DNA from: a bacterium | GTDB lineage: Bacteria > Patescibacteriota > Minisyncoccia > UBA6257 > 02-FULL-45-10c | DNA length: 64,000 nucleotides | Direction: 5' to 3' | Assembly: GCA_021786945.1 (NCBI GenBank) | Contig: JAJYMK010000003.1 | Span: forward strand, 37,105-101,104 | In this document: positions 1 to 58,160 of the stretch, in pieces | Layout of the letters: each line of letters starts with the position of its first letter | Numbering within the stretch: position 1 is the stretch's first letter | The notes under the pieces: generated by a model | Told to the model about the DNA's origin: nothing | Seen by the model: the letters and a program-made list of their open reading frames with translations, nothing else | Databases searched by the model: none | Position numbers and translations under genes: made by a program

Positions 1-1205
<1,205 letters not shown>

Positions 1206-1380: not shown

Positions 1381-1404
1381 AGCGCCTTGTCGGCGTTTTT
1401 TATT
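1381..1404 (+). terminator. Weak rho-independent terminator downstream of 16S (gcgcc-ttgtc-ggcgt stem plus T-run)
   Basis: Short GC stem followed by TTTTTTATTTTT. Confidence 0.35.
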
Positions 1405-1442
1405 TTTAAAAAAATAAAGTCTTGTGATATAATATAAAAACA

Positions 1443-1814
1443 ATGGCAAAGAAAATATTATTGATTGAGGACGACCCATTTTTATCTTCTTTATTAAAAA
1501 ATAGATTTATTAAGGAGGGTTATGAAATCGTATTGGCTCAAACCGGTGATGCAGGCATCCAAGCTGCAAAACAAGGCGGGGTTGATTTGATTCTTTTAGA
1601 TCTTATTCTTCCGGGTAAGTCCGGATTTGAAGTTATGGAAGAGTTAAATATGGATCCGTTGGTCCCCAAGGTTCCTATTCTTATAATTTCCAATTTAGGA
1701 CAAGATAGTGATATAGAGAAAGGTAAGGAGCTTGGCGCTGTGGGTTATCTTATAAAAGCCAGGACATCAATTGAAACTTTAATTTCTAAAGCAAAGGAAT
1801 TTATAGGAACTTAA
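1443..1814 (+). CDS. Single-domain CheY-like response regulator receiver
   Basis: Receiver-domain motifs: LLIEDD..., the phospho-acceptor context DLILLDLILPGKSG, and a conserved Lys near the C-terminus. A TGATATAAT extended -10 lies just upstream. Confidence 0.85.
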   Translation: MAKKILLIEDDPFLSSLLKNRFIKEGYEIVLAQTGDAGIQAAKQGGVDLILLDLILPGKSGFEVMEELNMDPLVPKVPILIISNLGQDSDIEKGKELGAVGYLIKARTSIETLISKAKEFIGT

Positions 1815-1900
1815 TAGTTATCAACATTTAATATTCCTTATATTTTATAAATAGTTTATAATATATATACAATTAAAATTAATAAAAAATATAGTTATTT

Positions 1901-2533
1901 ATGAGTAAATCAGTAACAAAAGGTTTTACCTTAATCGAATTATTGATCGTTATTGGTATTTTGGCTGTTTTAGCCACCGTAACATTATTAGTATTAAATC
2001 CGGCTCAGATGTTTGCTCAGGCCAGGGATTCACAGAGGATTTCCGATTTAAATACAGTTAAGAGCGCCGTTTCTTTGTATTTATCTACAGCGTCTTCCCC
2101 GGTTTTAGCTACAGGCACCAATGGTGTTGATTGTGCTACAAATTTTTGGGGTACTTTTGCAACAACCACTGGAGCTACAGCTGGCGCCGCTTTATTTGGT
2201 AATTCCGCCAGAACGACATTTAAATCTCCAACCTCTGCCACAACTACCGTTGGCCTAGGCGGATGGATTCCTGTTCCTTTAGATACAATGTCTGGAGGTT
2301 CTCCAATTAGTGCTTTGCCGTTGGATCCTTCCAATATTTTGAATGGTACAAATACAAATGACGCTACAGCTTATTACTATGCCTGCAGCACAACTCAGAT
2401 GACTTTTAAATTAGTAGGACAATTGGAAAGCACCAGATATTCTAACGGTGGTACAGAAGATAAAGAATCAACTGACGGTGGTACAAATGCCGCTTATTAC
2501 GAAACCGGTACCAATATCTCTGCCAGTTTGTAA
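1901..2533 (+). CDS. Type IV major pilin paralog 1 (class III signal, G|FTLIELL)
   Basis: N-terminus MSKSVTKG|FTLIELLIVIGILAVLA is a prepilin peptidase site with Glu+5. It shares the GWIPV...LP.DP...ESxxYS...STDGG..YYE core with the next two genes. Confidence 0.9.
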   Translation: MSKSVTKGFTLIELLIVIGILAVLATVTLLVLNPAQMFAQARDSQRISDLNTVKSAVSLYLSTASSPVLATGTNGVDCATNFWGTFATTTGATAGAALFGNSARTTFKSPTSATTTVGLGGWIPVPLDTMSGGSPISALPLDPSNILNGTNTNDATAYYYACSTTQMTFKLVGQLESTRYSNGGTEDKESTDGGTNAAYYETGTNISASL

Positions 2534-2556
2534 ACCCGATTCTAAAAAATATTTTT

Positions 2557-2585
2557 ATCCCGCACAATTGTGCGGGATTTTTGTT
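2557..2585 (+). terminator. Rho-independent terminator after pilin 1
   Basis: atcccgcaca-att-tgtgcgggat followed by TTTTTGTT. Confidence 0.7.
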
Positions 2586-2631
2586 AACATTTTCATTTAT
2601 TAACTTTTTAAAATAGTTTATAATTAAATTT

Positions 2632-3234
2632 ATGAATAAAACATCGGCAAAGGGTTTTACTTTAATTGAACTTTTAATCGTTATCGCTATTTTGGCTATT
2701 TTAGCCACAGTGGTTTTGATTGTTATTAACCCGGTTCAAATGTTTGCTCAAGCCAGGGATTCTCAGAGGATTAATGATATGGCTACTTTAAATAGCGCCG
2801 TAGCTTTATATTTAACAACTGTCACATTGCCATCGTTGGAGGGTGGTGGTGGAACTTGCGCAGCAAATTTTTGGGCCACCAACGGAAGCGCAGTTAATAC
2901 CTTCGTTACTTCTTTAGTTTTACCAGCCGCCCCTTCTTTTACGGCAGCCGTAGATGGTACGGGCTGGATTCCGGTTAATTTATCTACAATTTCCGGCGGC
3001 TCTCCTTTAAGCGCTCTGCCTAGGGACCCCATAAATTCAAGTACGTATTTTTATTCTTATGCTTGTAATAATGCCAGTAAATGGTTTGAGTTTCATTCGA
3101 AAATGGAAAGCTGCAGATATAGTTATAATAATTCCGGTTGTGGAGGTGCCGGCAGTGATGATGTAGAAAGCACAGATGGAGGCCCAAACAATAATTATTA
3201 CGAAGTCGGAAATACTCCTGGTTTGGGTTTGTAA
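2632..3234 (+). CDS. Type IV major pilin paralog 2
   Basis: MNKTSAKG|FTLIELLIVIAILAILA. It has its own TATAAT ~7 nt upstream of the ATG. Confidence 0.9.
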   Translation: MNKTSAKGFTLIELLIVIAILAILATVVLIVINPVQMFAQARDSQRINDMATLNSAVALYLTTVTLPSLEGGGGTCAANFWATNGSAVNTFVTSLVLPAAPSFTAAVDGTGWIPVNLSTISGGSPLSALPRDPINSSTYFYSYACNNASKWFEFHSKMESCRYSYNNSGCGGAGSDDVESTDGGPNNNYYEVGNTPGLGL

Positions 3235-3251
3235 GATTTATAAATAAAAAA

Positions 3252-3860
3252 ATGTCAAAAGGTTTTACTTTAATTGAGCTTTTAATCGTTATAGGTATAT
3301 TGGCTATTCTAGCTACTGTCACGGTGGTTGTTTTAAACCCTGGTCAACTATTTGCCCAAGCGAGAGATTCGCAAAGAATGTCTGATTTGGAAACTGTCAG
3401 TAAAGCTATAGGATATTATTTGTTAAATACTAGCAGCGTAGATCTTGATTCTGCGCTTTCGGTTTGCGGAACTTCCGGTACCCAATCATTGGCTTACACC
3501 GGAACTATTGCGGGTGCCACTACAAGCTTGATTTGCGCCGGAACCTGTTCTCAGGTTGCTGTTTCGGCAGCCAACGTTACTAATGTTGATGGGACTGGCT
3601 GGATTCCGGTAAATTTTGCAAGCGGCATGCTGGCGGGTACATCTATAAGTGATTTGCCGATTGATCCTACCAATACTACCGGCGCTACTGGATACGCATA
3701 TTCATATGGCTGTAATAATGCAGCCGCAACTTATGAGATCGATGCAAACTTGGAAAGTCAAAAATATTCGTATACCGGTTCAGATGATAAGGAGTCTAAG
3801 GATGGGGGAAATTCGGCTACATTGTACGAGGTTGGTAATGATCCTGGTTTGAATATGTAA
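3252..3860 (+). CDS. Type IV major pilin paralog 3
   Basis: MSKG|FTLIELLIVIGILAILA. Conserved C-terminal ESxKYSYTGSDDKESKDGG...YEVGN motif. Confidence 0.9.
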   Translation: MSKGFTLIELLIVIGILAILATVTVVVLNPGQLFAQARDSQRMSDLETVSKAIGYYLLNTSSVDLDSALSVCGTSGTQSLAYTGTIAGATTSLICAGTCSQVAVSAANVTNVDGTGWIPVNFASGMLAGTSISDLPIDPTNTTGATGYAYSYGCNNAAATYEIDANLESQKYSYTGSDDKESKDGGNSATLYEVGNDPGLNM

Positions 3861-3880
3861 TTTATTCGAAAGGTGGATAA

Positions 3881-3910
3881 AAAGCCGTGCTTATATCACG
3901 GCTTTTTTGT
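3881..3910 (+). terminator. Rho-independent terminator after the pilin array
   Basis: aaagccgtg-cttatat-cacggcttt plus a T-run. It is followed at once by TGTTATAAT (3908-3916), 8 nt before the pilB ATG. Confidence 0.7.
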
Positions 3911-3924
3911 TATAATAAAATTAA

Positions 3925-5631
3925 ATGCAGATTCCTATACACAAACTAAAAGAGATCGTTGTCGGTGAGAATTTTATTAGTGAAGCCGATTTTGATGCTT
4001 TGACGGAAGAAGCTGCTAGATTAGGCCAGAATGTAGCTGATGTTTTGATTTCAAAAAACATTGTTTCGCATGACTATCTTGCCGATTTGCTTTCTTCTTA
4101 TTTTGGCGTTGAAAAAGCCAATCTTGCTTCCAGGCAAATTGATAAGAATATTTTACAGCTTTTGCCGGAAGAAATGGCTAGGCAAAAAAAGGTAATTGTT
4201 TTCGCCAAAGAAGATTCGGGAATTTTTGATGTGGCTATGGAGGACCCGAGCGATTTGTTGACTATAGAATTTTTAGAGCAAAATTTGGGCGGTAAAGTAA
4301 AGCCATTTTTGGCTTTGGAGGGAGATTTGAATAAAGGCTTTGCTTTGTATGGTCAGGAATTATCTCAGGATTTTAAACAAATCATCGAATCAAATATTAA
4401 GGAGTCTTTAAGAATGGGGAAGAAGGGCGATGAGGCCGCTACGGAGGTTCCTATTGTTGCCATTGTAGATAATCTAGTTTCTTACGCCTTGGCTTCCCGT
4501 GCATCAGATATTCATTTTGAAATTTTTCAGGACGGAATACTTGTCCGTTACAGGATCGACGGTGTTTTGCATGAAATTATGAAGATACCAAAAGAAGTTC
4601 ATTCCGCTATCGTTGCTCGTGTAAAACTTTTGGGCGGTTTAAAAATTGATGAACATTATAAGCCGCAGGATGGACGTTTTAGATATAGAATTTCTGGAGG
4701 TAAGGATGTGTTGGACGTAAGGGTTTCCATATTGCCCACATACTATGGCGAAAAAATAGAAATGCGTCTTTTGGCTGCAGCTCAAAGGCCGCTGTCTTTA
4801 AAGGAGGTTGGTTTACTTGAAGACCATGCGGAAATTGTGATGGAAAATATAAAAAAGAGTTACGGTATGATCCTAGTTTGTGGTCCTACGGGTTCCGGTA
4901 AAACAACTACTCTGTATTCAATTTTAGGCCTTTTAAATAAAACGGAAGTAAATATTGTTACCATTGAGGATCCTATTGAATACGATATTAAATTTATAAA
5001 TCAAACACAGATCAATCCTCAGGCCGGAGTTACTTTTGCCAGCGGATTAAGATCTATTTTGAGGCAAGACCCTAATATTATCATGGTTGGTGAAATCAGA
5101 GATCCAGAAACTGCCGATATTTCCGTGCAGGCAGCTTTGACCGGTCATTTGGTGCTTTCTTCCTTGCACACGAACGATGCTCCGACAGCAGTGCCAAGGT
5201 TGATAGATATGAATATTGTTCCTTTTTTGGTTGCAGCTGTTGTTAATATGGTTTTGGCTCAAAGACTTGTACGAAGTATTTGTCTTGAATGTATTTATTC
5301 TATGGAGCCGGATAAAGAAACAATAGATGTAATTACACGTCAGCTTAAGGAATTGGGAGTTGAGAATTTTAAAATACCGAAATTAATTTATGCCGGAAAG
5401 GGCTGTCAGGCTTGCGGCGGTACTGGCTATAGAGGCAGAACCGGTATTTTTGAAATATTGAATGTGACCGAGGATATCAGAAAGGCTATTATTAGTCCCG
5501 ATTTTTCTTTGGATACTTTAAGAAACTCAGCCAGGGCTCATGGAATGGTAAGCATGTTTGAGGATGGATTAAGAAAAGTTGAGCGTGGTATGACAACCGT
5601 CGAAGAAATTTTGAGGGTTATAAGAGAGTAG
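3925..5631 (+). CDS. pilB: Type IV pilus assembly ATPase PilB/GspE family
   Basis: Walker A GPTGSGKTTT, Asp box, His box and the C-terminal tetracysteine motif CLEC...CQACGGTGYRGRTGIFE. 568 aa. Confidence 0.92.
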   Translation: MQIPIHKLKEIVVGENFISEADFDALTEEAARLGQNVADVLISKNIVSHDYLADLLSSYFGVEKANLASRQIDKNILQLLPEEMARQKKVIVFAKEDSGIFDVAMEDPSDLLTIEFLEQNLGGKVKPFLALEGDLNKGFALYGQELSQDFKQIIESNIKESLRMGKKGDEAATEVPIVAIVDNLVSYALASRASDIHFEIFQDGILVRYRIDGVLHEIMKIPKEVHSAIVARVKLLGGLKIDEHYKPQDGRFRYRISGGKDVLDVRVSILPTYYGEKIEMRLLAAAQRPLSLKEVGLLEDHAEIVMENIKKSYGMILVCGPTGSGKTTTLYSILGLLNKTEVNIVTIEDPIEYDIKFINQTQINPQAGVTFASGLRSILRQDPNIIMVGEIRDPETADISVQAALTGHLVLSSLHTNDAPTAVPRLIDMNIVPFLVAAVVNMVLAQRLVRSICLECIYSMEPDKETIDVITRQLKELGVENFKIPKLIYAGKGCQACGGTGYRGRTGIFEILNVTEDIRKAIISPDFSLDTLRNSARAHGMVSMFEDGLRKVERGMTTVEEILRVIRE

Positions 5632-5632
5632 T

Positions 5633-6841
5633 ATGAAGTTTCACTACATAGCTTCCGATCCTACAGGAAGAATAAATGAAGATAATTATGAGGCTGAAAG
5701 CTCTTATGAAGTTTTGAATTTTTTGGCTAAAAAGGGCTTAAGGCCGATTTCTATTAAGGTTGTAAGAAGTGTTGATGTAAACTTAAAAAAATTTTTTGGA
5801 CAAACTGTTACCATTGAAGATAAAATATTTTTGACGAAATACTTGTCTTTGATGTTGAAGGCGGGAACGGATTTGTTCAAGGCCATTACTATCCTTATTC
5901 AGGATTTTGAAAAACCGGTTTTGAAGGCTCTTTTGATTGAGATTAGGAATACCTTGGAAAAGGGACAGCCTTTTTATCTTACATTTTCTAAATATCCAAA
6001 ATATTTTTCAAATGTTTTTGTCAGTTTGATTAAAGCCGGAGAGCTTTCTGGTAACCTTGAACAGGTTTTTTATAATTTAAGCGTTTCTCTGCAAAAAGAC
6101 CAAGAGCTCTACGGGCGCATAAAATCAGCTTTTATTTACCCTATAATTTTGATGGGGGTTTCGGCTTTAATCCTTTTATTGCTTGTAAGCTTTGCTTTGC
6201 CGAAAGTGGCAGATGTTTTTTTGAAATCGGGTTTTAAAGTACCATTTTTTTCACAAATAGTTTTTTCTATAGGCTTATTTATAAATGATTATAAACTCAT
6301 AATTTTTCCTTTATTATTTATTTTTGTGGTTGTTTCTTATTATTTCTTTGCCAAGACGGTTCCGGGCAGGCAAATAATTTCCAGATTTATAAACAAACTT
6401 CCTATTGTAAATAAGGTTATCAAAGAAATGGCTTTGCAGAGATTCGCTTCAACACTTGCTTCTTTGATGCGTGCCGGCTTACCGATTTTAGATGCCTTAG
6501 AAATTACCGCTGATTCAGTTGGTTCTGAAGAATTAAGACAAGCCCTGCTTAGAATCTCTAGAGAGGGAATTGCTAAGGGACTTACTATCGGCGAGGCTTT
6601 CAGAAAAGAACCTTTTTTCCCCATGACGGTTACCAATCTTATCGCTGTTTCCGAGAAGGCCGGACACACAGAGGATATTTTGAGCACATTATCTGAATTT
6701 TTTGAAACAGAAATTGACGGACAGGTTAAAAACCTCGTTTCATTCCTTGAACCTATTTTACTTTTAGGTATAGGGTTGATAATTGGAACAATCGCTTTAG
6801 CTGTTATAGTTCCGGTTTATCAGCTTGTTGGTGGCATGTAG
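5633..6841 (+). CDS. pilC: Type IV pilus inner-membrane platform protein PilC/GspF family
   Basis: Two GspF repeats, three TM segments, and a start 2 nt after the pilB stop. Confidence 0.88.
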   Translation: MKFHYIASDPTGRINEDNYEAESSYEVLNFLAKKGLRPISIKVVRSVDVNLKKFFGQTVTIEDKIFLTKYLSLMLKAGTDLFKAITILIQDFEKPVLKALLIEIRNTLEKGQPFYLTFSKYPKYFSNVFVSLIKAGELSGNLEQVFYNLSVSLQKDQELYGRIKSAFIYPIILMGVSALILLLLVSFALPKVADVFLKSGFKVPFFSQIVFSIGLFINDYKLIIFPLLFIFVVVSYYFFAKTVPGRQIISRFINKLPIVNKVIKEMALQRFASTLASLMRAGLPILDALEITADSVGSEELRQALLRISREGIAKGLTIGEAFRKEPFFPMTVTNLIAVSEKAGHTEDILSTLSEFFETEIDGQVKNLVSFLEPILLLGIGLIIGTIALAVIVPVYQLVGGM

Positions 6842-6884
6842 AGAGGGGTATAATTAAAATTGTTTAACACTAATTTTAAAAACA

Positions 6885-9800: not shown

Positions 9801-10631
9801 CTTTATTGTTTTGAGCAGCCAACCGCTCCTTCCGCTCCAGAAAATCTATTAGCTCTTCGCAGCAGCGTTGCTACGGAAGTTGCCTTAAGTTGGACAGCTC
9901 CATCAAACAATGGCGGCTTACCGATAACTGGTTATAAAATTTATCGGGGAACTACTAGTGGGGGAGAGACTTTATTGGCAACCATCGGTAATGTTTTGAC
10001 CTATACAGCTACGGGTCATACAAGTGGTATAACGTATTATTATAAAGTATCTGCGGTAAATTCGGTCGGCGAAGGAAGTCTTTCAATTGAAGCATTAGGA
10101 TATCCTGGAGCGAAAAGAATATTTGTAACTAGCACAGCATACAATGGTAATCTTGGTGGTGTTGCTGGGGCTAATAGTATTTGTCAGACCCGTGCTAATG
10201 CGGCTTCTCTTGGAGGTACTTGGAAGGCTCTTATATGTTCATCTACTCAAGATGCAAGATCGGTCCCGACCTATGGTACAAATAGCGCATTTGTACGTGT
10301 AGATGGAGTTTATATTAGCGCAAATACAAGCTCTCCAAATGATTTGTTTGACGGTACTATAGCTAACAGTCTAAACAAAACAGAGTTTAATGGTACGCTT
10401 AGCAGGGTTCTTGACAGTATTGAAACCGGTTGTTTAACTACTGGCTTAAGACAAACCGATAGTAATACCTACATGTGTAGCGACTGGACATCTTCTTCTG
10501 CTGCAGGTCCTCCTTATAAAAATGCGTCTGGTCCATTAAGTACGGACGAAACTTTATATGGCTATTACATGGGTGGGAGTGCATATGGCTGCGCTTATAC
10601 AAATTTGCATATTTACTGCATCGAAATATAA
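6885..10631 (+). CDS. Giant prepilin-type protein (1248 aa): pilin N-terminus, Ig-like region, 5 FN3 repeats, 3 Cys-containing lectin-like modules
   Basis: N-terminus MFNKKNNG|FTLMELLVTMGIAVVLG is a class III signal. FN3 repeats have the form PTAPQNF...LNW.AP.DNGG..IT.Y.VYR....G.E.LL...G..L..TD.GLTNGTTYYYK. There are three ~160-aa modules of the form R(I/L)FVTS..Y.GNLGG..GA...C...A.A.SLGG.WKA...(4-6 Cys)...(L/I)YC(V/F/I)E. Confidence 0.85.
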   Translation: MFNKKNNGFTLMELLVTMGIAVVLGSVAMSNYFSYQSTVSIDGAANELLGNLRDAQQRAISQDQQSAWGVYINAVSDDNDYYELFYGNSRSTGTVVSKTVLPVDLEFLVPAQGSVSEINFAKSTGLPNHDYTLIIVSKRNSTLARTISFNMSTGLIASSENLGSGPTLSSITPNSALNSAPVNITALVGTGFQQGALLKLTKSGNPDLICTNMAFVNSALLTGTCDVTGKSGGTWNTVVVNPDGQSATLANSFTLIGVSVPGFVSSFSAVVGNQQLVLNWGAPLDNGGATITSYKVYRSTTSGAETLLTSGGCSGLGSVLTCTDSGLTNGTTYYYKISAVNSVGEGALSSEISYIPASVPTAPQNFAVSSGNQQLVLNWGAPLDNGGATITSYKVYRSTTSGAETLLTSGGCSGLGSVLTCTDSGLTNGTTYYYKISAVNSVGEGALSSESSATTFTTPTAPQNFAAISGKQKIVLNWTAPSNNGGSSITNYEIYRGASSGGETLLAEVGSVLTYTDSGLANGSTYYYKVAAKNIIGIGTQSSESSATTLTEWRRIFVTSTSYSGNLGGLSGADSLCQTRANAVSLGGTWKAWLSDETTNASDRLYHDTVAYVNMNNDKVANNWTDLTDGSLTSAIQYNESGVSTAGQAWTGSYSDGTKYFSQDCTAWTSTTGTGGDAGLSGIVTSTTGSWSYNGTNSCNTSLPLYCVEQPPFSAPDAPTINTVYAGNSRVSVLFSAPSSDGGSPITSYTVTSNPGNITANASASPIIVTGLTNGIPYTFTVTATNAIGTGPASVPSSSVTLPTVFSRLFVTSLKYNGNLGGLSGADAKCQARADAASLGGIWKAWLSDSTTDASARLFHNTVPYVDILGNLVANDWTGLTSSNLIMPIKYDEFGVEYTDQYYPNPTSLAVHTNTYANGTRIATQSVYTCSDWTYASNYDQYSMWHGFTRRSDSTWSYDPNWYGLGCPIEQFLYCFEQPTAPSAPENLLALRSSVATEVALSWTAPSNNGGLPITGYKIYRGTTSGGETLLATIGNVLTYTATGHTSGITYYYKVSAVNSVGEGSLSIEALGYPGAKRIFVTSTAYNGNLGGVAGANSICQTRANAASLGGTWKALICSSTQDARSVPTYGTNSAFVRVDGVYISANTSSPNDLFDGTIANSLNKTEFNGTLSRVLDSIETGCLTTGLRQTDSNTYMCSDWTSSSAAGPPYKNASGPLSTDETLYGYYMGGSAYGCAYTNLHIYCIEI
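7704..8234 (+). repeat. Perfect tandem duplication inside the giant pilin gene (period 297 bp; 234 bp identical)
   Basis: 7704-7937 is base-for-base identical to 8001-8234. Each copy encodes an identical FN3 domain. The antisense ORFs 7710..8006 and 8007..8273 translate identically because of it. Confidence 0.9.
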
Positions 10632-10644
10632 CGACAGAATAAAA

Positions 10645-10676
10645 ACAGGAGAGACTTATAACCTCTCCCGTTTTTA
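10645..10676 (+). terminator. Rho-independent terminator after the giant pilin gene
   Basis: caggagag-acttataac-ctctcccg followed by TTTTTATTATT. Confidence 0.7.
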
Positions 10677-10736
10677 TTATTGAGCTGGGGATTGTTTCGG
10701 TTTTAGCTATTAGAATAAAGTGTTAAAATATTAATA

Positions 10737-12629
10737 ATGTCTAAAAGATTTCAAAGCGGCCAGTCGTTGATGGAAATTTTGATTGGCCTTGGAATTATCT
10801 CAATAATGGTAGGTACTTCTACCTATGCTTTGGTTACTGTTTTAAGAACCAGCTCTACCACCGAGCAAAATCAAGCAGCTGGATTAATAGGTAACAGTCT
10901 TTTGGAATCAGCTTCTACTTTAGCCGAGGCAAATTGGAACTCGATTTATAACTTACAAAAAACTTTATCTAATCATTACTATCTTGTAAGATCTTCTACT
11001 ACCACCCCAACTCCCGTTGCGGGAGATGAAAGCGTTTTGGAGCAGGATGTTACGAACGGTTTGGTTGGCTATTGGAAATTCGATGAAGCTGGCGGCAGTT
11101 ATGCCTATGATTCTTCCGGTAATGGAAATTTGGGAACACTAACGAATATACCAGATTTAAACAGCGGGCTTGTTGGATATTGGAAATTCGATGAAGGATC
11201 GGGTGCATCTGTAACTGATTTTTCCGGAAATAATAATACGGGAACCTTGGTAAATTCTCCGACATGGACTGATAGTTTAAATTGCAGATTGGGTGGATGC
11301 TTGGGTTTTAACGGATTAAATCAATATGTTCAAGTTAATAATTCTCCTTCATTAAATCCCAATAATTTAACAATTTCGGTTTGGGCTAAGAGTAATACTT
11401 CTACTTGGAATGATTATGGTTTTTTGGTTAGTAAGAGAAATGCGTATATTATTCACCCGGTTCAAGGAACTAATAGTATTGGTTTTTATATTTATACAAC
11501 AGCTTGGACATCTGTTAGTTGTAGTGCTGCAAATATTACAAATTGGAATTTGTATACCCTAACATGGAACGGAACGACTCTGAGTTGCTATGTTAATGAA
11601 ACGATGGGATATTCAAATAATCCCGGCGGATCAATAAATGTTTCTGATGGCAATAATTTAACTATTGGTAGGGATAGTACTTTATCTAGGTATTTTAATG
11701 GCTTTATCGACAATGTTCGTATTTACAACAGAGCCCTAACCGCAACTGAAGTTTCGAGGCTTTATAATATGAATGGTTGTAAGGCTGGGAGTTGTATGGT
11801 TTTTAATGGAACAAATAATTATATATCGATTCCTCACAATGCCGTTCTTACCCCAACATCAGCCTTAACAGTTTCAGTTTGGGTTAATCCCACCTCAGTT
11901 TCTTCAGCTCTTGATATTTTAAATAAAACTTGGCAGTATTCGGGCGATCTTTATTGGCTTAGAATAAATGCCGGAGGAACTATTTATTGGCATATTGGAA
12001 CTGCAGATACCGTTGCTAAGGCTATGAATACGACAGCTTCAATTCAGGCTAATAAGTGGTCGCATATTGTGGCTACTTATAATGGGTCAAAAGCTTACGT
12101 TTATATAAACGGCATTAAGGACGCTAACTCCATTACAGTTTCTCCGTCTCAAAATTTTGGCCCATCTGTTTATAAACTTGATATAGGAGTAAGACTTGTT
12201 TATTTTTCTGGTCTTATCGATGATGTTCGTATCTACAACCGTGAATTATCGGCTAGTGAAATTTCCCAAATTTATAACAGCCAGGTTTATTCGAGATATT
12301 TTTATGTAGATAATGTGAATAGGGATGTTTGTGGCTCCGGAAATATTACTACGAGTGCCCAAAGCACATGTATTGGAACGAGCGGTGTTAGCGAAGATCC
12401 GGCCACGCAAAAAATTACAGTAGGAACATACTGGAATTTAAAGGGTGTAAAACAGGTTTTGGAAAATTATATTTATGTTACTAGGTGGTTGAATAGTGCA
12501 GCGGCGCAAAATGACTGGGGCGGCACCAGCGGTGTTGATACTTCGGTTTCCAGTTTCGGAACCGATTATTACAGCGCATCAAATATTTCGGTAACAGCTT
12601 CTGGTACCATTAAAGTATCGGGGCTTTAA
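10737..12629 (+). CDS. Pseudopilin-like protein with two LamG/concanavalin-A-like lectin domains
   Basis: Pilin-like N-terminus MSKRFQSG|QSLMEILIGLGIISIMVG with Glu+5. Two LamG_3-type signatures: LVGYWKFDE(A/G)...SGNGN.GTL and GFIDNVRIYNRALTATEV / GLIDDVRIYNRELSASEI. Confidence 0.75.
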   Translation: MSKRFQSGQSLMEILIGLGIISIMVGTSTYALVTVLRTSSTTEQNQAAGLIGNSLLESASTLAEANWNSIYNLQKTLSNHYYLVRSSTTTPTPVAGDESVLEQDVTNGLVGYWKFDEAGGSYAYDSSGNGNLGTLTNIPDLNSGLVGYWKFDEGSGASVTDFSGNNNTGTLVNSPTWTDSLNCRLGGCLGFNGLNQYVQVNNSPSLNPNNLTISVWAKSNTSTWNDYGFLVSKRNAYIIHPVQGTNSIGFYIYTTAWTSVSCSAANITNWNLYTLTWNGTTLSCYVNETMGYSNNPGGSINVSDGNNLTIGRDSTLSRYFNGFIDNVRIYNRALTATEVSRLYNMNGCKAGSCMVFNGTNNYISIPHNAVLTPTSALTVSVWVNPTSVSSALDILNKTWQYSGDLYWLRINAGGTIYWHIGTADTVAKAMNTTASIQANKWSHIVATYNGSKAYVYINGIKDANSITVSPSQNFGPSVYKLDIGVRLVYFSGLIDDVRIYNRELSASEISQIYNSQVYSRYFYVDNVNRDVCGSGNITTSAQSTCIGTSGVSEDPATQKITVGTYWNLKGVKQVLENYIYVTRWLNSAAAQNDWGGTSGVDTSVSSFGTDYYSASNISVTASGTIKVSGL

Positions 12630-12645
12630 TATAAATATGTGATAT

Positions 12646-13509
12646 ATGAATAAAAAATTAAAAATAATTTCATTTTTAACCTTTTTGACCGTTGGATTCG
12701 GATTTTTTTCTGATTTTGCTTCGGCTGCGACAAATATTGTTTCGGTGTCTCCTTATTATTATGCCTGGAATGATATAATTGGCTGGATAAATTTTTATAG
12801 CACCGGAAATGTTTATCTTTCTACAACTAATCTGACCGGCTATGCAAATTCAGATATTGGATATATTGCTTTTGATTGCGCAAGTTCACCGACCCCGCCC
12901 ACGGATTGTGTTACCACCTTTCCTGATTGGCACGTAACAAGAAGCGGCTCATCTCTTTCTGGTTGGGCTTGGAATGATCAAATTGGTTGGATTAGTTTTG
13001 ATTGCCACAACACTAACACCTGCCTTACATCAAATTATCAAGTAACTTTATCAGGGGATGAATTTATTGGTTACGCTTGGAATGATATTATTGGTTGGAT
13101 TAGTTTTAATTGTACGAATTCCGGAACTTGCGCGACGGTAGATTATAAGGTAAAGCGGTTGCCGGAAGTGGCTTTAACAGGATCCTTAATCTCTAGCACC
13201 TTTGACACGGGTGTTGCCGGGGGCGTTGTTTACAACACCGTTCTATATCACGGTACGAAGCCGGTAGGAACAGAGGTGAAACTTCAGTTGGCTACATCAG
13301 ATAGTTCGTCTGGTCCGTGGAATTTTAGCGGTTATGATGGGACGGATACAACCTTTTATACTCCAATAGGCCCAGATGTTTCTATAGCTTTGAACCCCGT
13401 TCTTTATAAAAACAAAAGATATTTTAGATATAAGATTTTCTTAAGTTCGGATACATACCAAAGCCTTACCCCGGAAGTTACCGGCGTTGTGGTTACTTGG
13501 AGCAGGTAG
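12646..13509 (+). CDS. Secreted protein with three Cys-containing (A)WNDIIGWI(S/N)F repeats
   Basis: Signal peptide MNKKLKIISFLTFLTVGFGFFSDFASA. Repeats YAWNDIIGWINF, GWAWNDQIGWISFDC and GYAWNDIIGWISFNC. It sits inside the pilus operon. Confidence 0.6.
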   Translation: MNKKLKIISFLTFLTVGFGFFSDFASAATNIVSVSPYYYAWNDIIGWINFYSTGNVYLSTTNLTGYANSDIGYIAFDCASSPTPPTDCVTTFPDWHVTRSGSSLSGWAWNDQIGWISFDCHNTNTCLTSNYQVTLSGDEFIGYAWNDIIGWISFNCTNSGTCATVDYKVKRLPEVALTGSLISSTFDTGVAGGVVYNTVLYHGTKPVGTEVKLQLATSDSSSGPWNFSGYDGTDTTFYTPIGPDVSIALNPVLYKNKRYFRYKIFLSSDTYQSLTPEVTGVVVTWSR

Positions 13510-13535
13510 TTTATTTATCGTTTATTAGTTAAATT

Positions 13536-13544
13536 TGTTATAAT
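13536..13544 (+). promoter_or_regulatory. Extended -10 element TGTTATAAT within the recurrent TTGTTATAATTAAATTAAT motif
   Basis: The same 18-nt motif recurs at 57268-57285, 51563-51580, 53784-53799 and 2617-2631, and partially at 6847-6857 and 3908-3920. Confidence 0.5.
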
Positions 13545-13590
13545 TAAATTAATCCAATGTCGGGATATTAATTAATTTTTTATAAAAAAA

Positions 13591-13959
13591 ATGAGTAAAT
13601 TAAATATAATTTTGTCGGCTATTGTATTGATTTTGTTGGTGGTTTTAGGTTTATTTTTTTGGAAGCCAAATTTCTTAACCGATTTAACAAGGCCTTGTTA
13701 TTATGCTGTTTATTTAACCAGCGGTGATTTATATTTCGGAAAAATAAGCTGGTTCGAACCGCATACTTTGACCGACGTGCGAATGATCCAGAGGGAGCAA
13801 GCCAGCGAAAAAGATCAGCCGGTTTTAAGCTTGGTTGAATTTAGTAAAAGTGTTGTTTGGGGTCCGATTAAGGAATTGGAACTAAATGAGAAAAATATTT
13901 TATGGATTTCGAAGTTGGGTGATGATAGCCAGGTCGTTCAGCTTATTAATAAAAAATAA
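13591..13959 (+). CDS. Small membrane-anchored protein (possible pilus assembly component)
   Basis: One N-terminal TM (ILSAIVLILLVVLGLFFW). Located in the pilus operon. Confidence 0.5.
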   Translation: MSKLNIILSAIVLILLVVLGLFFWKPNFLTDLTRPCYYAVYLTSGDLYFGKISWFEPHTLTDVRMIQREQASEKDQPVLSLVEFSKSVVWGPIKELELNEKNILWISKLGDDSQVVQLINKK

Positions 13960-13965
13960 TATTTT

Positions 13966-14391
13966 GTGAGGTTGGATTTATATAAAAATAGAGGAATAGC
14001 CGCCCTACCAACGCTTCTTTTGGTTGGGGGAATTATTACTGGAATTTCTATAGCCTTAACGGCTTCCGTCTATTTGTATATTAATTCCACATCTGGCGCA
14101 AATTTGTCTTTAAAGGCCCTTTCTGTCGCTAAATCTGGGGTTTATGATGGTTTGATGAAAGTAGTAAGAGATAAATCCCTGATTAGTGCCAACTATACCT
14201 TGAATATAGGAAATCAGACCGCTACTATAACTATTTGCCGCGACTCTGCTGAGTGCGGAGGCAGCGGAAAGTTTAAGATAGATTCTATCGGTACGGCTTT
14301 TACCAGAAGAAAGAAAATGGAGGCGATAGTTGCCGTAGATCCGGATACGGGTATTACAAAATTGGAAAGCATGAAGGAGGTAGCGTTATAA
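13966..14391 (+). CDS. PilX-like minor pilin / pseudopilin (GTG start)
   Basis: N-terminus NRGIAALPTLLLVGGIITGISIALTASVY resembles the PilX N-terminal helix. Confidence 0.5.
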   Translation: MRLDLYKNRGIAALPTLLLVGGIITGISIALTASVYLYINSTSGANLSLKALSVAKSGVYDGLMKVVRDKSLISANYTLNIGNQTATITICRDSAECGGSGKFKIDSIGTAFTRRKKMEAIVAVDPDTGITKLESMKEVAL

Positions 14392-14403
14392 TTATATTGA
14401 TAT

Positions 14404-15936
14404 ATGGATTTAAATTTATTTTCTAAAAAATATCCTGTATTGGGAAAATATTGGCAGAAAATCATTAAGCTTTTAAAATCCGAAAATATTATCGGCGGAA
14501 TTAGCATAAGCAGCACGGCGATACGTTTTATAAGATTAAACGAAGGCGTAATCGAAAAGATTGGAGTTGTTTTGGAGCCTGGGGTTATTGTGGCGGGCAG
14601 GTTAAAAAACAGAGACATATTTTTGAAGTCATTACTAGCCTTAAGGAATAAATTGGGTAATCCTAAAGAGGATATTCATGTAATTGTTTCTTTATCTCCG
14701 GACAATGTTTATACACAATCCTTTAATATTCCAGCTATAGAGGAAAGATTGGTTAATGAAGCGGCAAAGCTTAATTTGCAGCTTATTTCTCCTATTGATA
14801 TAAAAACGGCTTATACCGATTGGGAAAAAATAGGCGAAACCCAGGAGGAGGGCGGTAAAATAGAATTACTTGGAGCTTTTGCTAATAAGGTAATGGTGGA
14901 TGAATTTACATCGGTTTTTAAAGAGGCTGGTTTTGGGGTGGTGGCTATTGAATTTTCATCTCTGTCCCTGGCCAGACTTATAAAAGACGAATCTTTTAAT
15001 GCGAGCTTGGAAAAACCACAGGTAGTTCTTTCTATTTCAAGTGATGGCCCAGAATTTTTTGTTTTAAAAAACAATAAGCTCTATTTCAATTATTTCTTTC
15101 CATGGACATCGGTTGAGGGTAGGCAAATATCCCTTTCCGATTTTGATACTATTTTAACTCAGGAAATGAAGAAAGTTCTGAATTTTTATAGTAGTCATTG
15201 GAACGCTCAGCTTTCCGACCTGGTTTTAATTACTCATGGTCTTTACTCTGAAATAGAAGCAATAATCAAAAAAAATTTTCCGGCTATCAATATAAAACCA
15301 ATTATATTGAACGATAAATTCTCTGGTTTAAATCCTTCCTGGTACACTGCTTTAGGCAGTGCAATAAGGGGAACTATTTCAAGATCGGATGATATTTTTA
15401 TTAGTCTTATGGATGTTGGTACTGAACAGAGTTTTTTTGAAAGCCGGGTTAGTTATTTTGTAAAAATTTGGCGAACAATAGTTTTGTCGACTTTAGGCGT
15501 TGTTGTTTTTTTGTTCTTTTTGGAAGATATGTTTTTTATGCAAATCTCAAATAGTTTACAGGCTCAAATTTCAACAATAGTTTCCAGACCGGAAAGCCAG
15601 GAAATAACAAGCCTTGAAAATAAAGCAAGAGAGTTTAACAGTCTTATTTCAAAAGCCTTAATTGCAAAACAGGGCAGCAGAAAAGTGTCTAGGTTTTTTG
15701 ATATTTTTAAACAGTTGGCAGGTACTGATATCGAAATACAAAAAATTGTCTTCGACACTGATAGGGCTACGGTTTTGATAACAGCTATAGCAAAAAGCAA
15801 TCAGGCGGTTATAAATTTTAAAAACAATCTTTCTAGCCGCAGCGAATTCAGGAACGTGGAGTTTTCTTTTACTAGTACCACCAACAATCCTGACGGAACT
15901 ATTAATTTCCCAATGACGCTGGGTGTAAATATATAA
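14404..15936 (+). CDS. pilM: PilM-like actin-fold protein fused to a PilN-like segment
   Basis: ~350-aa PilM/FtsA-like region, then a TM helix (IWRTIVLSTLGVVVFLFFL), then a ~140-aa coiled-coil plus alpha/beta C-terminus typical of PilN/PilO. Confidence 0.65.
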   Translation: MDLNLFSKKYPVLGKYWQKIIKLLKSENIIGGISISSTAIRFIRLNEGVIEKIGVVLEPGVIVAGRLKNRDIFLKSLLALRNKLGNPKEDIHVIVSLSPDNVYTQSFNIPAIEERLVNEAAKLNLQLISPIDIKTAYTDWEKIGETQEEGGKIELLGAFANKVMVDEFTSVFKEAGFGVVAIEFSSLSLARLIKDESFNASLEKPQVVLSISSDGPEFFVLKNNKLYFNYFFPWTSVEGRQISLSDFDTILTQEMKKVLNFYSSHWNAQLSDLVLITHGLYSEIEAIIKKNFPAINIKPIILNDKFSGLNPSWYTALGSAIRGTISRSDDIFISLMDVGTEQSFFESRVSYFVKIWRTIVLSTLGVVVFLFFLEDMFFMQISNSLQAQISTIVSRPESQEITSLENKAREFNSLISKALIAKQGSRKVSRFFDIFKQLAGTDIEIQKIVFDTDRATVLITAIAKSNQAVINFKNNLSSRSEFRNVEFSFTSTTNNPDGTINFPMTLGVNI

Positions 15937-15942
15937 CTTAAT

Positions 15943-15970
15943 AAAAAGACGGGCCTTGTTGGCCCGTTTT
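15943..15970. terminator. Bidirectional terminator between convergent pilM and pth
   Basis: agacgggcc-ttgtt-ggcccgt flanked by A-run and T-run. Confidence 0.7.
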
Positions 15971-15971
15971 T

Positions 15972-36202: not shown

Positions 36203-36260
36203 GCATTAATTATATCAAAATATCCCCATTTAAGAAGCTATTTACCATACAGTATATTAG

Positions 36261-58158: not shown

Positions 58159-58160
58159 CA

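What the first reader, a model, noticed from the sequence alone, without database searches (positions are those of the whole stretch)
1443..15936. Complete, compact type IV pilus locus with a standalone receiver and multiple lectin-decorated pilins
Gene order is receiver, pilin x3, PilB, PilC, giant pilin, LamG pilin, secreted repeat protein, small membrane protein, PilX-like, PilM-N. The three pilins are separate transcription units with their own -10 elements and terminators. They share a conserved core, which would allow differential expression or recombination among them. PilD, PilT and a secretin are not in the window. The lectin-type domains on minor pilins suggest glycan-directed adhesion, for example to a host cell if this is an episymbiont.
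Basis: partly seen in the sequence, partly recalled or inferred. Interest (0 to 1): 0.5.

Follow-up and report, generated by a model that had tools for sequence, protein, structure and literature searches.

The report
Accessory type IV pilus locus, Paceibacteria
This is a genuine but ordinary type IV pilus gene cluster from an ultra-small Patescibacteria (Paceibacteria) bacterium; it lacks its own retraction motor and prepilin peptidase, and it carries unusually large adhesin-decorated minor pilins plus a conserved, undescribed secreted partner protein.

Summary
All twelve ORFs sit at the stated coordinates, and profile or fold evidence supports each assignment. They are a receiver, three paralogous pilins, PilB, PilC, a 1248-aa modular pilin, a LamG pilin, a secreted repeat protein, a small membrane protein, a pilin-fold protein lacking Glu5 (best fold match GspK), and a PilM-PilN fusion. 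The source is a Paceibacteria genome (GCA_027372035.1).

- The locus is not "complete". PilD, PilT and PilO are absent. In other Patescibacteria, PilD and PilT lie in a different locus type (PilM…PilB-REC-PilT-PilC-PilA-PilD-minor pilins).
- Terminators follow pilA1 and pilA3 only. pilA2 and pilA3 are 17 nt apart.
- Recombination among the pilins is unlikely, because the longest shared exact run is 17 nt.

Additions:
- Order and genomic position are conserved across Paceibacteria.
- The giant pilin is a GspH-like minor pilin with a ~1090-aa C-terminal graft (Ig-like, fn3 ×5, Leptospira Len/endostatin-like ×3).
- The LamG pilin is a PilV-like pilin with two LamG domains inserted inside its globular domain.
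- The repeat protein belongs to a large Pfam-less family. In many genomes it is fused to the C-terminus of that same PilV-like pilin.

Verdict: a new member of a known kind, of moderate-to-low interest.

The parts
1374..1404 (+). Intrinsic terminator closing the 16S rRNA gene (16S ends at 1206); marks the upstream boundary of the locus
   Evidence: RNAfold gives -14.8 kcal/mol, a 13-bp stem followed by a T run. The 16S is identified by Rfam.
1425..1433 (+). Extended -10 element TGATATAAT, 9 nt upstream of the receiver ATG (leaderless-type arrangement)
   Evidence: Best promoter-like hit in the region, flagged TG. Sequence read. Position-specific enrichment of TATAAT upstream of start codons.
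1443..1814 (+). Stand-alone receiver (CheY-like single-domain response regulator), 123 aa
   Evidence: PF00072 75.8 bits. D10, D11, D53, S83 and K105 are present. An orthologous receiver heads the locus in L006 and L024.
1901..2533 (+). pilA1, candidate major pilin, 210 aa; leader MSKSVTKG|FTLIELL
   Evidence: N_methyl 29.4 bits and TIGR02532 28.9 bits. Alignment A1.
2557..2578 (+). Intrinsic terminator after pilA1
   Evidence: 9-bp stem with 6 GC pairs, followed by TTTTTG.
2632..3234 (+). pilA2, pilin paralogue, 200 aa; TATAAT at -13..-8
   Evidence: N_methyl 34.7 bits. 54% identical to pilA1. Upstream sequence.
3252..3860 (+). pilA3, pilin paralogue, 202 aa; only 17 nt after pilA2, with no terminator between them
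   Evidence: N_methyl 28.8 bits. 49% identical to pilA1. Intergenic sequence.
3879..3907 (+). Intrinsic terminator after pilA3, followed by TATAAT (3911-3916) 8 nt before the pilB ATG
   Evidence: 11-bp stem followed by a T run.
3925..5631 (+). PilB-type assembly ATPase, 568 aa (MshEN/T2SSE_N, Walker A GPTGSGKT, C-x2-C...C-x2-C motif)
   Evidence: PF00437 400 bits and PF05157 46.9 bits. TIGR02538 scores 527 bits against an equivalog cut-off of 676. It is the only T2SSE Walker A in the window.
5633..6841 (+). PilC platform protein, 402 aa
   Evidence: PF00482 169 bits, two stretches. GspF/PilC NCBIfam models score 215-274 bits, below the equivalog cut-offs.
6885..10631 (+). Giant modular minor pilin, 1248 aa. 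Layout: GspH/ComGD-like pilin module (aa 1-~160), Ig-like (~165-258), fn3 x3 (~262-548), Len/DUF1554 (555-710), fn3, Len/DUF1554 (808-978), fn3, Len/DUF1554 (1078-1248)
   Evidence: Pfam hits: N_methyl, fn3 x5, DUF1554 x3, Endostatin. NCBIfam hits: LenA/B, LenF, ComGD, GspH. The pilin module is 33% identical to the 157-aa unadorned orthologue in L024. Domain boundaries come from motif positions.
7704..8281 (+). 297-nt tandem duplication inside the giant pilin (fn3 units 1 and 2); the first 234 nt of the two copies are identical
   Evidence: TRF reports 1.9 copies at 94%. Mismatch positions. Four independent assemblies break inside this stretch, at aa 283-397.
10635..10682 (+). Intrinsic terminator after the giant pilin
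   Evidence: RNAfold shows a hairpin followed by a T run.
10737..12629 (+). PilV-like minor pilin (leader ...SG|QSLMEILIG), 630 aa, with two LamG domains inserted inside the pilin globular domain (insertion ~aa 84-517)
   Evidence: Laminin_G_3 x2, 186 bits. BLASTP against the 210-aa L024 orthologue gives two blocks, 1-83/1-83 and 106-210/518-630. The L025 orthologue scores 46.4 bits on TIGR02523 PilV.
12646..13509 (+). Secreted repeat protein ('rep287'), 287 aa: Sec signal peptide, three W-N-D-x-I-G-W-I-x-F beta repeats, and a C-terminal jelly-roll domain
13591..13959 (+). Small single-pass membrane protein, 122 aa, role unknown; found only in the closest relative
   Evidence: Hydrophobic segment at aa 6-24. 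No family hit. An orthologue is present in L023 but absent from L024 and L025.
13966..14391 (+). Non-canonical minor pilin, 141 aa (conserved G at -1, then IAALPT; Pro replaces Glu5); GspK/GspI-like fold without the GspK alpha-domain
14404..15936 (+). PilM-PilN fusion, 510 aa (cytoplasmic actin-like PilM, TM at 355-373, external PilN)
   Evidence: PilM_2 29.2 bits (cut-off 27) and PilN 22.1 bits (cut-off 22.8). TM segment. The same single ORF of 499-510 aa occurs in L008, L023, L024 and L025.
15940..15976 (.). Bidirectional terminator between the PilMN gene and the convergent peptidyl-tRNA hydrolase gene; downstream boundary of the locus
   Evidence: 16-bp stem. pth at 15972-16457 on the minus strand.
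38544..40043 (+). Unlinked fourth PilA-core paralogue: a single ORF of Smr domain (aa 14-92), class III signal (QAKA|FTLIELL), pilin, and LamG
   Evidence: Pfam hits: Smr 63 bits, N_methyl 23.8 bits, Laminin_G_3 75.5 bits. 39% identical to pilA1. The same architecture occurs in a second species at 79% identity, with an in-frame 6-nt indel at the junction.

Best explanation
The region is a type IVa-like pilus assembly locus of a Paceibacteria (Patescibacteria) bacterium. It is one of two T4P locus types seen in this phylum, and it is the type that has no retraction ATPase and no prepilin peptidase of its own.

Proposed mechanism:
1. Three paralogous prepilins (PilA1-3) and three minor prepilins are inserted in the membrane. 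A prepilin peptidase encoded elsewhere cleaves them after Gly-1 (inferred).
2. The PilB hexamer drives polymerisation. It sits on the PilC platform and is held by the GspL-like PilM-PilN fusion. The proteins are shown by homology; the mechanism is inferred from the family.
3. Assembly is primed by a tip complex of three parts:
   - a GspH-like pilin that carries a ~1090-aa stalk of Ig, fn3 and Len/endostatin-like modules;
   - a PilV-like pilin with two LamG domains inserted in its head;
   - a small GspK/GspI-fold pilin lacking Glu5.
4. The Sec-secreted two-domain protein rep287 docks on the PilV-like pilin. This is inferred because in many other genomes the two are a single polypeptide.
5. 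The complex ends up at the pilus tip and presents several binding modules to a host-cell surface (inferred).
6. The CheY-like receiver at the head of the locus couples pilus production or activity to a histidine kinase (inferred).

From terminators and -10 boxes, expression appears to run in about four units: REC(+pilA1), pilA2-pilA3, pilB-pilC-giant pilin, and LamG pilin to PilMN. Many of these are of the leaderless type.
For: Family assignments:
- Every core protein is assigned by Pfam or NCBIfam.
- The Glu5-less protein has a pilin fold and a GspK/GspI-like best match.
- The pilin module of the giant pilin hits GspH/ComGD models. It aligns to a 157-aa unadorned orthologue.
- The LamG pilin is a split match to a 210-aa orthologue. 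The L025 orthologue matches the full PilV model.

rep287 link to the PilV-like pilin:
- The family has 3777 representatives.
- About a third of the top 150 carry the domain at the C-terminus of a longer protein.
- 24 of 30 such long forms that were fetched begin with the GQSLIE PilV-like pilin.
- Forms with a LamG insertion (P0273, P0282) are effectively the two window genes fused into one.

Conservation:
- Order and neighbourhood are conserved in distinct species: (RF1, L31, 16S) REC-pilins-PilB-PilC-mp1-mp2-rep-X-PilMN-pth-lepB-hisS...ftsAZ.
- In other Patescibacteria loci, a PilT-size ATPase and an A24 PilD lie beside a separate PilM and a receiver.

Transcription signals: terminators and -10 positions are. 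TATAAT starts at -17..-10 in 13 of 59 genes, against 0.42 expected.

Precedents:
- TM7x has a PilT-containing and a PilT-less T4P system; the latter is used for host binding (PMC11623550).
- S. sanguinis has a tip complex with a ConA-like lectin pilin (PMC9934059).
- Modular pilins are widespread, with PF13385 and fn3 among the commonest modules (PMC8179133).
Against: - No pilus, transcript or binding activity has been observed; everything is inferred from sequence.
- I could not scan the rest of this genome for PilD or PilT. Dependence on a second locus is extrapolated from other genomes.
- The PilN and window LamG-pilin N_methyl scores fall just under the Pfam cut-offs: 22.1 against 22.8, and 16.0 against 21.2.
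- PilB and PilC fall below the NCBIfam equivalog cut-offs.
- rep287 has its own Sec signal peptide here, so its physical association with the pilus rests only on gene fusion elsewhere and on adjacency.
- Which PilA is the major subunit, and whether the three co-polymerise, is unknown.
Confidence: 0.8

Rival explanations
1. The locus builds a DNA-uptake (competence-type) pilus rather than an adhesive one. On this reading it is a retraction-ATPase-less filament that captures DNA for a nucleotide-auxotrophic episymbiont, and the large modules are incidental.
For: - The locus has no PilT, as in ComG systems.
- The giant pilin's N-terminus hits ComGD, and the major pilins weakly hit ComGC/ComGE models.
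- In TM7x the PilT-less locus sits next to recA/recX (PMC11623550).
- Natural competence is documented in Patescibacteria (title and abstract of PMC10633639, listed).
Against: - PilB scores 527 bits on the T4aP PilB model but only 237 bits on ComGA, whose cut-off is 300.
- A PilM-PilN protein is present. By my own knowledge ComG operons lack one; this was not tested here.
- No comEA, comEC or recA lies in or beside the locus in any of the syntenic relatives.
- The minor pilins carry LamG, Len/endostatin-like and discoidin-like modules, which are typical adhesin domains.
Confidence: 0.12
2. The three tandem pilin genes are a variation system. Recombination or gene conversion among them, or switching between separately transcribed copies, changes the pilus surface.
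For: - There are three full-length paralogues in tandem with a conserved N-terminal core.
- pilA1 is separated from pilA2 by a terminator, and each gene has a -10-like box.
- The genome holds at least five more pilins built on a related core.
Against: - The copies share only 49-54% amino-acid identity.
- DNA identity in the best 192-nt stretch is 68-76%, and the longest exact shared run is 12-17 nt. That is too short for efficient homologous exchange.
- All three are complete genes with their own signal peptides, not silent cassettes.
- pilA2 and pilA3 have no terminator between them.
- Two major pilins co-assembling into one heteropolymeric pilus is documented in S. sanguinis (PMC10628169). 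That is a simpler reading.
Confidence: 0.1
3. The machinery works as a short pseudopilus or secretion piston (T2SS-like) that exports or displays rep287 and other proteins, rather than as a long surface pilus.
For: - PilC scores best on the GspF model and PilB scores nearly as well on GspE as on PilB.
- The PilM-PilN fusion has the architecture of GspL (my own knowledge).
- The minor pilins resemble GspH, GspI and GspK.
- A secreted protein is encoded inside the operon.
Against: - No secretin is present, and no outer membrane is expected in Patescibacteria (and the ORF survey).
- rep287 has a Sec signal peptide and needs no further export across a single membrane.
- There are three abundant-type pilins of ~200 aa with short leaders.
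- Pili have been seen on cultivated relatives (PMC11623550).
Confidence: 0.05

Closest known systems
Second (PilT-less) type IV pilus system of Nanosynbacter lyticus TM7x, T4P-2 (PMC11623550)
   Same: - Same phylum.
- It is a second T4P gene set with PilB, PilC and PilM/N but no retraction ATPase, alongside a fuller PilT/PilD-containing locus.
- Its minor pilins carry large accessory domains and are proposed to act as lectin-like host-binding tip proteins.
   Different: - TM7x has separate PilM, PilN and PilO; here PilM and PilN are one ORF and no PilO is recognisable.
- In TM7x the pilins of that system lie in a separate locus, and recAX is adjacent.
- The TM7x tip modules are a beta-propeller and a jelly roll, not LamG, fn3 or Len-like.
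- No receiver and no rep287-type protein is reported there.
- I did not compare the sequences directly.
Streptococcus sanguinis T4P tip complex PilA-PilB-PilC with modular pilins (PMC9934059, PMC8179133)
   Same: - It is a monoderm-type T4P.
- It has a minor pilin carrying a ConA/LamG-superfamily lectin module, and a second bulky modular pilin.
- It has more than one major pilin.
   Different: - In S. sanguinis the modules are grafted at the C-terminus; here the LamG pair is inserted inside the pilin head.
- S. sanguinis has PilT and PilD in its locus.
- The giant pilin here is about 2.5 times larger and uses fn3 plus Len-like domains instead of vWA.
- S. sanguinis has no separate secreted partner.
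GspH-I-J-K / FimU-PilV-PilW-PilX (+PilY1) priming and tip complex of T2SS and T4aP
   Same: - There is an H-like pilin, a PilV-like pilin and a Glu5-less K/I-fold pilin encoded together.
- There is also a non-pilin partner positioned like PilY1.
- The order and inferred role (priming, then tip display) match.
   Different: - Only three pilin-type members are recognisable; a clear J subunit is not.
- The K-like protein lacks the GspK alpha-domain and is half its size.
- rep287 shows no PilY1 beta-propeller.
- HMM scores are below the family cut-offs.
   Same: - Same phylum.
- The PilB is homologous (36-39% identity) and the PilC is 25-29% identical.
- A stand-alone receiver is embedded in the locus, and the major pilins are GFTLIELL-type.
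   Different: - That locus type has a separate 383-aa PilM, a 352-aa PilT-size ATPase, an A24 PilD and four small minor pilins.
- It has no rep287, no PilMN fusion and no giant modular pilins.
- It sits next to ligA rather than between the 16S gene and pth.
Leptospira endostatin-like Len proteins (PMC2063517)
   Same: The three DUF1554 domains of the giant pilin hit the NCBIfam LenA/B and LenF models and Pfam Endostatin. Len proteins are surface adhesins.
   Different: - Len proteins are single-domain spirochaete outer-membrane lipoproteins that bind fibronectin, laminin and complement regulators of animals.
- Here the domain is repeated three times on a pilin of an environmental bacterium.
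- Scores (71 and 48 bits) are far below the equivalog cut-offs (300 and 400).

Membership tests
Type IV pilus / type IV filament machinery | Pilins with a class III signal peptide (short leader, Gly-1, hydrophobic helix with Glu5) | tested here: met
   pilA1-3 and the giant pilin score above the PF07963 and TIGR02532 cut-offs. The motif G|FTL[IM]ELL was read directly in six frames.
Type IV pilus / type IV filament machinery | PilB/GspE-family assembly ATPase | tested here: met
   PF00437 scores 400 bits against a cut-off of 24.9, and PF05157 scores 46.9 bits. The NCBIfam equivalog TIGR02538 scores 527 bits, below its 676-bit cut-off. Family membership is therefore met, but equivalog status is not.
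Type IV pilus / type IV filament machinery | PilC/GspF polytopic platform protein | tested here: met
   PF00482 scores 169 bits in two stretches. The equivalog models are all below cut-off.
Type IV pilus / type IV filament machinery | Prepilin peptidase (PilD, peptidase A24) | tested here: not met
   None is present in the 64-kb window. There is no A24 motif in six frames and no A24 hit among the scanned ORFs. It is present in the other locus type of related phylum members. The rest of this genome could not be searched.
T4aP with twitching (retractile) capability | PilT-type retraction ATPase | tested here: not met
   Only one T2SSE Walker A exists in the window, and it is PilB. A 352-aa T2SSE ATPase is present in loci L009-L021 of other genomes.
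T4aP alignment subcomplex PilM-PilN-PilO | PilM actin-like protein, PilN and PilO bitopic proteins | tested here: inconclusive
   PilM_2 scores 29.2 bits against a cut-off of 27, so it just passes. PilN scores 22.1 against 22.8, so it just fails. TIGR01175 scores 30 bits against a cut-off of 133. No PilO is recognisable, and the 122-aa membrane protein has no hits.
Modular pilins (sense of Raynaud et al. 2021, PMC8179133) | [quoted passage not shown] | tested here: met
   The giant pilin has N_methyl plus fn3, DUF1554 and Endostatin. The 38.5-kb paralogue has N_methyl plus LamG. For the 630-aa LamG pilin, the N_methyl score is 16.0, below the 21.2 cut-off. Its pilin nature rests on orthology to the L024 and L025 pilins.
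GspK / PilX class of minor pilins ('PilX-like' of the finding) | Pilin fold with a class III-type N-terminus lacking Glu5 | tested here: met
GspK / PilX class of minor pilins ('PilX-like' of the finding) | Sequence-profile match (PilX_N / T2SSK models) and the alpha-domain inserted in the beta-sheet | tested here: not met
PilV (TIGR02523) minor pilin | Full-length match to the PilV model | tested here: inconclusive
   The L025 orthologue scores 46.4 bits against a cut-off of 52.2, covering 2-138 of 139 model positions. The window protein itself is interrupted by the LamG insertion and gives no PilV hit.
ComG competence pilus | ComGA-type ATPase and ComGB platform at equivalog level | tested here: not met
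   ComGA scores 237 bits against a cut-off of 300. ComGB scores 131 bits against 240. Both proteins score much higher on the PilB/GspE and GspF/PilC models.
PilG/PilH-type CheY-like regulators of T4P | Single receiver domain with an intact phospho-acceptor pocket, genetically linked to T4P genes | tested here: met
   PF00072 scores 75.8 bits with no output domain. D10, D11, D53, S83 and K105 are present. Linkage recurs in L006 and L024 and in 12 loci of the other type.
PilG/PilH-type CheY-like regulators of T4P | Partner Chp/Pil-Chp chemosensory kinase and a demonstrated effect on PilB/PilT | not testable with these tools
   No CheA-type kinase is in the window. Two PAS-rich histidine kinases lie at 58161-63663, but nothing links them to this receiver.

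The most novel reading that the evidence does not exclude
Across Paceibacteria this PilT-less locus would encode a dedicated host-recognition pilus. Its tip would be built on two conserved 'carrier' minor pilins, one GspH-like and one PilV-like. These carriers accrete different binding modules even between close relatives: 1248 aa against 1460 aa, and 630 aa against 1276 aa. The tip would also include a previously undescribed, strongly conserved two-domain protein, the rep287 family. That family has no Pfam model and ~3800 representatives, and it occurs either fused to the PilV-like pilin or secreted separately. On this reading rep287 acts as the invariant tip adhesin or adaptor, functionally analogous to PilY1 but unrelated to it.
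Probability: 0.4. Interest if true: 0.55.

Novelty: new member of a known kind. Interest (0 to 1): 0.35.

Why it matters
Patescibacteria make up a large share of bacterial diversity, and the cultivated ones live attached to host cells. Type IV pili are the only attachment organelle shown experimentally so far, and only in Saccharibacteria.

This locus gives a clean, syntenically anchored picture of the second, retraction-less pilus system in Paceibacteria, a much larger and almost uncultivated class. It identifies which parts are constant: PilB, PilC, PilMN, three carrier pilins, rep287 and often a receiver. It also identifies which parts vary between close relatives, namely the adhesin modules.

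That yields concrete candidates for host-specificity determinants and one uncharacterised conserved protein family to test. It does not reveal a new kind of machine.

Tried and rejected
- Generic sigma-70 scan. It found 36 promoter-like sites against 48.8 expected, so it gives no evidence on its own. I used position-specific enrichment of TATAAT upstream of start codons instead.
- The consensus terminator scan missed the hairpins after pilA3 and after the giant pilin. RNAfold on the intergenic regions found them.
- Recombination substrate search. No long identical tracts exist among pilA1-3 or with the fourth paralogue; the maximum is 21 nt.
- MAFFT alignment of the LamG pilin with short orthologues mis-placed the C-terminal block. 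Pairwise BLASTP resolved the insertion.
- I considered a Com pilus, a T2SS-like pseudopilus and a Neisseria-like pilin variation system. All rank low; see the rival explanations.
- I could not find PilD or PilT of this genome.
- Literature searches for 'Smr domain' with 'prepilin', and for 'anti-Shine-Dalgarno' with 'Patescibacteria', returned nothing. A broader search found that anti-SD loss in Parcubacteria is already published.

Full report
WHAT IS THERE

The window starts inside a bacterial 16S rRNA gene (positions 1-1206, Rfam RF00177). PilB from the window is encoded identically on contig DAHXJT010000001.1 of assembly GCA_027372035.1 and in three metagenome assemblies. Its closest relatives in the species-representative genome set are labelled Candidatus Paceibacterota. 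The organism is therefore a Paceibacteria (Parcubacteria) member of the Patescibacteria.

The block ends at a bidirectional terminator (15940-15976) shared with a convergent peptidyl-tRNA hydrolase gene.

Pfam gathering thresholds are passed by these genes:
- the receiver (75.8 bits)
- the three pilins (N_methyl 28.8-34.7 bits, cut-off 21.2)
- PilB (T2SSE 400 bits, plus MshEN)
- PilC (T2SSF 169 bits)
- the giant pilin (N_methyl, fn3 x5, DUF1554 x3, Endostatin)
- the LamG domains of the 630-aa protein (186 bits)
- PilM (29.2 bits, cut-off 27)

Two scores fall just short:
- PilN scores 22.1 against a cut-off of 22.8.
- The 630-aa protein's N_methyl scores 16.0 against 21.2.

NCBIfam equivalog cut-offs are not reached by PilB (527 bits against 676), PilC or PilM. 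That is expected for a deeply divergent phylum. PilB scores far better on the T4aP PilB model than on ComGA (237 bits against a cut-off of 300).

The refutation criterion is therefore not met. This is a type IV pilus locus.

The receiver is a bare CheY-like domain with D10, D11, D53, S83 and K105 intact.

THE THREE PILINS

PilA1-3 are 49-54% identical, with canonical leaders ending in KG|FTLIELL. Hairpin-plus-T-run terminators follow pilA1 (2557-2578) and pilA3 (3879-3907). pilA2 and pilA3 are only 17 nt apart and nothing folds between them.

Each gene has a TATAAT-like hexamer ending 5-9 nt before its ATG, and no Shine-Dalgarno sequence. This is a property of the whole genome:
- A perfect TATAAT starts at -17..-10 in 13 of 59 genes, against 0.42 expected.
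- The 16S 3' tail reads GGAUCAUUUUAUUU in place of GGAUCACCUCCUU, so the anti-SD is missing.
- Anti-SD loss is already published for a Parcubacteria subgroup (PMC9297842).

Further terminators follow the giant pilin (10635-10682) and the PilMN gene. The likely transcription units are REC(+pilA1), pilA2-pilA3, pilB-pilC-giant pilin, and LamG pilin through PilMN.

The recombination idea is weak. DNA identity is 68-76% over the best 192 nt, and the longest exact shared runs among pilA1-3 are 12-17 nt. All three are complete genes. Co-assembly of several major pilins, as in S. sanguinis (PMC10628169), or alternative use, are simpler readings.

WHAT THE 'DECORATED' PILINS REALLY ARE

Comparative loci resolve this. 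A conserved arrangement occurs in other Paceibacteria (L008, L023, L024, L025):

REC - 2-3 pilins - PilB - PilC - minor pilin 1 - minor pilin 2 - rep protein - ~140-aa protein - PilMN - pth(-) - lepB - hisS - HIT - S21 - yqeY - ybeY - ftsA - ftsZ - RNR

RF1, L31 and the 16S gene lie upstream.

In L024 the two minor pilins are plain:
- The 157-aa pilin gives GspH/ComGD-type hits.
- The 210-aa pilin has a GQSLIE N-terminus. Its L025 orthologue matches the whole PilV model at 46 bits.

The window's giant pilin is minor pilin 1 (33% identity over the pilin module) with a ~1090-aa C-terminal graft. The graft is an Ig-like domain, three fn3 domains, then (Len/DUF1554-fn3) x2 and a final Len/DUF1554 domain.

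The window's LamG pilin is minor pilin 2, split by an insertion. Residues 1-83 and 518-630 match the two halves of the 210-aa orthologue, and two LamG domains sit between them. This is an insertion into the pilin head, not a C-terminal graft as in S. sanguinis PilC.

Module content differs even in the closest relative, L023. There the giant pilin is 1460 aa with Fib_succ_major domains, and the LamG pilin is 1276 aa with at least three LamG domains.

Modular pilins with PF13385 or fn3 modules are already known to be common, many of them from CPR genomes. The longest cited in that survey is 860 aa (PMC8179133).

The DUF1554 domains resemble the Leptospira Len adhesins. Those bind fibronectin, laminin and complement regulators (PMC2063517). 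'Lectin-decorated' is therefore justified for LamG only.

THE 'PilX-LIKE' ORF

No profile matches it or its orthologues. Its family conserves Gly-1 followed by IAALPT, so proline replaces Glu5.

The AF2 model (pLDDT 81.7) is a pilin lollipop. Its best structural matches are:

It is a small tip-class (K/I-like) minor pilin without the GspK alpha-domain.

THE 'SECRETED REPEAT PROTEIN'

This is the least ordinary component. It has a Sec signal peptide and three W-N-D-x-I-G-W-I-x-F units, and it hits no Pfam or NCBIfam family.

It is well conserved, at ~45-50% identity across Wolfe-, Lipton- and Pacebacteria. One search found 838 hits. An exhaustive search found 3777 representatives at E <= 1e-3 and 1135 at E <= 1e-10.

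About a third of the top 150 representatives carry the domain at the C-terminus of a longer protein. Of 30 such long forms that I fetched, 24 start with the GQSLIE PilV-like pilin. Some of these (P0273, P0282) also have the LamG insertion. In those genomes the window's two adjacent genes are effectively a single polypeptide.

This Rosetta-stone relation, plus a 16-nt gene spacing, argues that rep287 is a pilus-tip component attached to the PilV-like pilin. It is inference, not demonstration.

WHAT IS MISSING, AND WHERE IT LIES IN RELATIVES

The window has one T2SSE ATPase and no A24 peptidase or secretin.

The genome scan with PilB also retrieved a second locus type from other Patescibacteria (PilB 36-39% identical):

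PilM (383 aa) - three bitopic proteins - PilB - REC - 352-aa T2SSE ATPase (PilT-size) - PilC - PilA(s) - PilD - four small minor pilins - ligA

The PilD carries A24_N_bact plus Peptidase_A24.

The window locus therefore corresponds to a second, PilT- and PilD-less system. This parallels the two systems shown experimentally in the Saccharibacterium TM7x, where the PilT-less system makes thin, host-binding pili (PMC11623550). I could not establish whether this particular genome holds the fuller locus.

A stand-alone receiver recurs in both locus types. That supports a functional link, but no kinase partner can be named.

OUTSIDE THE STATED COORDINATES

A fourth PilA-core gene lies at 38544-40043. 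It is a single ORF made of an Smr domain, a class III signal (QAKA|FTLIELL), the pilin, and a LamG domain.

A second species has the same 499-aa architecture at 79% identity. Its junction has an in-frame 6-nt indel and reads ...WLFNG|FTLIELL, and it has no internal ATG. The fusion is therefore real.

The same genome encodes at least five more pilins on this core, with FISUMP, fn3 or LamG modules. Most have Ala at -1.

VERDICT

'Complete', 'three transcription units' and 'recombination' need correction.

T4P in Patescibacteria, PilT-less second systems, stand-alone CheY-like regulators and lectin-type modular pilins are all described already. The locus is a new member of a known kind.

The modestly new elements are:
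- the class-wide conserved layout
- the insertion-type LamG pilin
- the size of the giant pilin
- the unnamed rep287 family linked by fusion to the PilV-like pilin

Noticed in passing
window 38544-40043 (+); L026 4001-5500: A single ORF fuses a cytoplasmic-type Smr domain (aa 14-92) directly to a prepilin class III signal, a PilA-like pilin and a LamG domain. The Smr domain takes the place of the leader peptide. The fusion is conserved in a second species at 79% identity, in the same PHO4/PhoU-like/ZnuA context, with an in-frame indel at the junction and no internal ATG. No paper pairing 'Smr domain' with 'prepilin' was found.
   Followed up: partly
same genome, outside the window (proteins P0126, P0129, P0133, P0143, P0148 on the 696,638-bp contig): At least five further modular pilins share 50-92% identity with the pilin core of the 38.5-kb gene. 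They end in different modules (Fib_succ_major/FISUMP, fn3, LamG). Most have Ala rather than Gly at position -1 (QKA|FTLIELL). This looks like a dispersed multigene family of 'major-pilin-core plus adhesin' subunits.
   Followed up: partly
window 1194-1206; L024 ~3940-3955: The 16S rRNA 3' tail lacks the anti-Shine-Dalgarno core: GGAUCAUUUUAUUU where the consensus is GGAUCACCUCCUU. A second species shows the same loss. This is already reported for a Parcubacteria subgroup (PMC9297842).
   Followed up: yes
whole window, upstream of start codons: A perfect TATAAT begins 10-17 nt before the start codon of 13 of 59 genes, against 0.42 expected. SD-like motifs precede only about five genes. This points to widespread leaderless-type expression.
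   Followed up: partly
window 1-1206 and 1207-64000: The 16S gene is followed by a terminator and protein-coding genes. No 23S or 5S rRNA occurs in the next 62 kb, and there is only one tRNA (Asn, 36260-36332). The rRNA genes therefore appear unlinked.
   Followed up: no
window 7704-8281; ends of L001-L004: Two fn3 units of the giant pilin are identical over 234 nt. Four independent assemblies of this organism all terminate inside this repeat. The copy number in the window may therefore be uncertain or variable.
   Followed up: partly
L009-L021 (e.g. L021 6844-18462): A second, fuller Patescibacteria T4P locus type was seen, always with a receiver between PilB and the PilT-size ATPase. Its order is PilM, three bitopic proteins, PilB, REC, PilT-size ATPase, PilC, PilA(s), PilD, four minor pilins, ligA.
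   Followed up: partly
window 13591-13959; L023 10911-11279: The 122-aa single-pass membrane protein inside the operon has no detectable family. It is present only in the closest relative, not in L024 or L025.
   Followed up: no
window 28633-30030 and 57286-63663: Several PAS-rich sensor proteins are present. They are an SBP_bac_3-TM-PAS protein, a 290-aa double-PAS protein, a 735-aa histidine kinase, and a histidine kinase longer than 1096 aa with many PAS/GAF units. Any of these could be the partner of the orphan receiver, but nothing links them to it.
   Followed up: no
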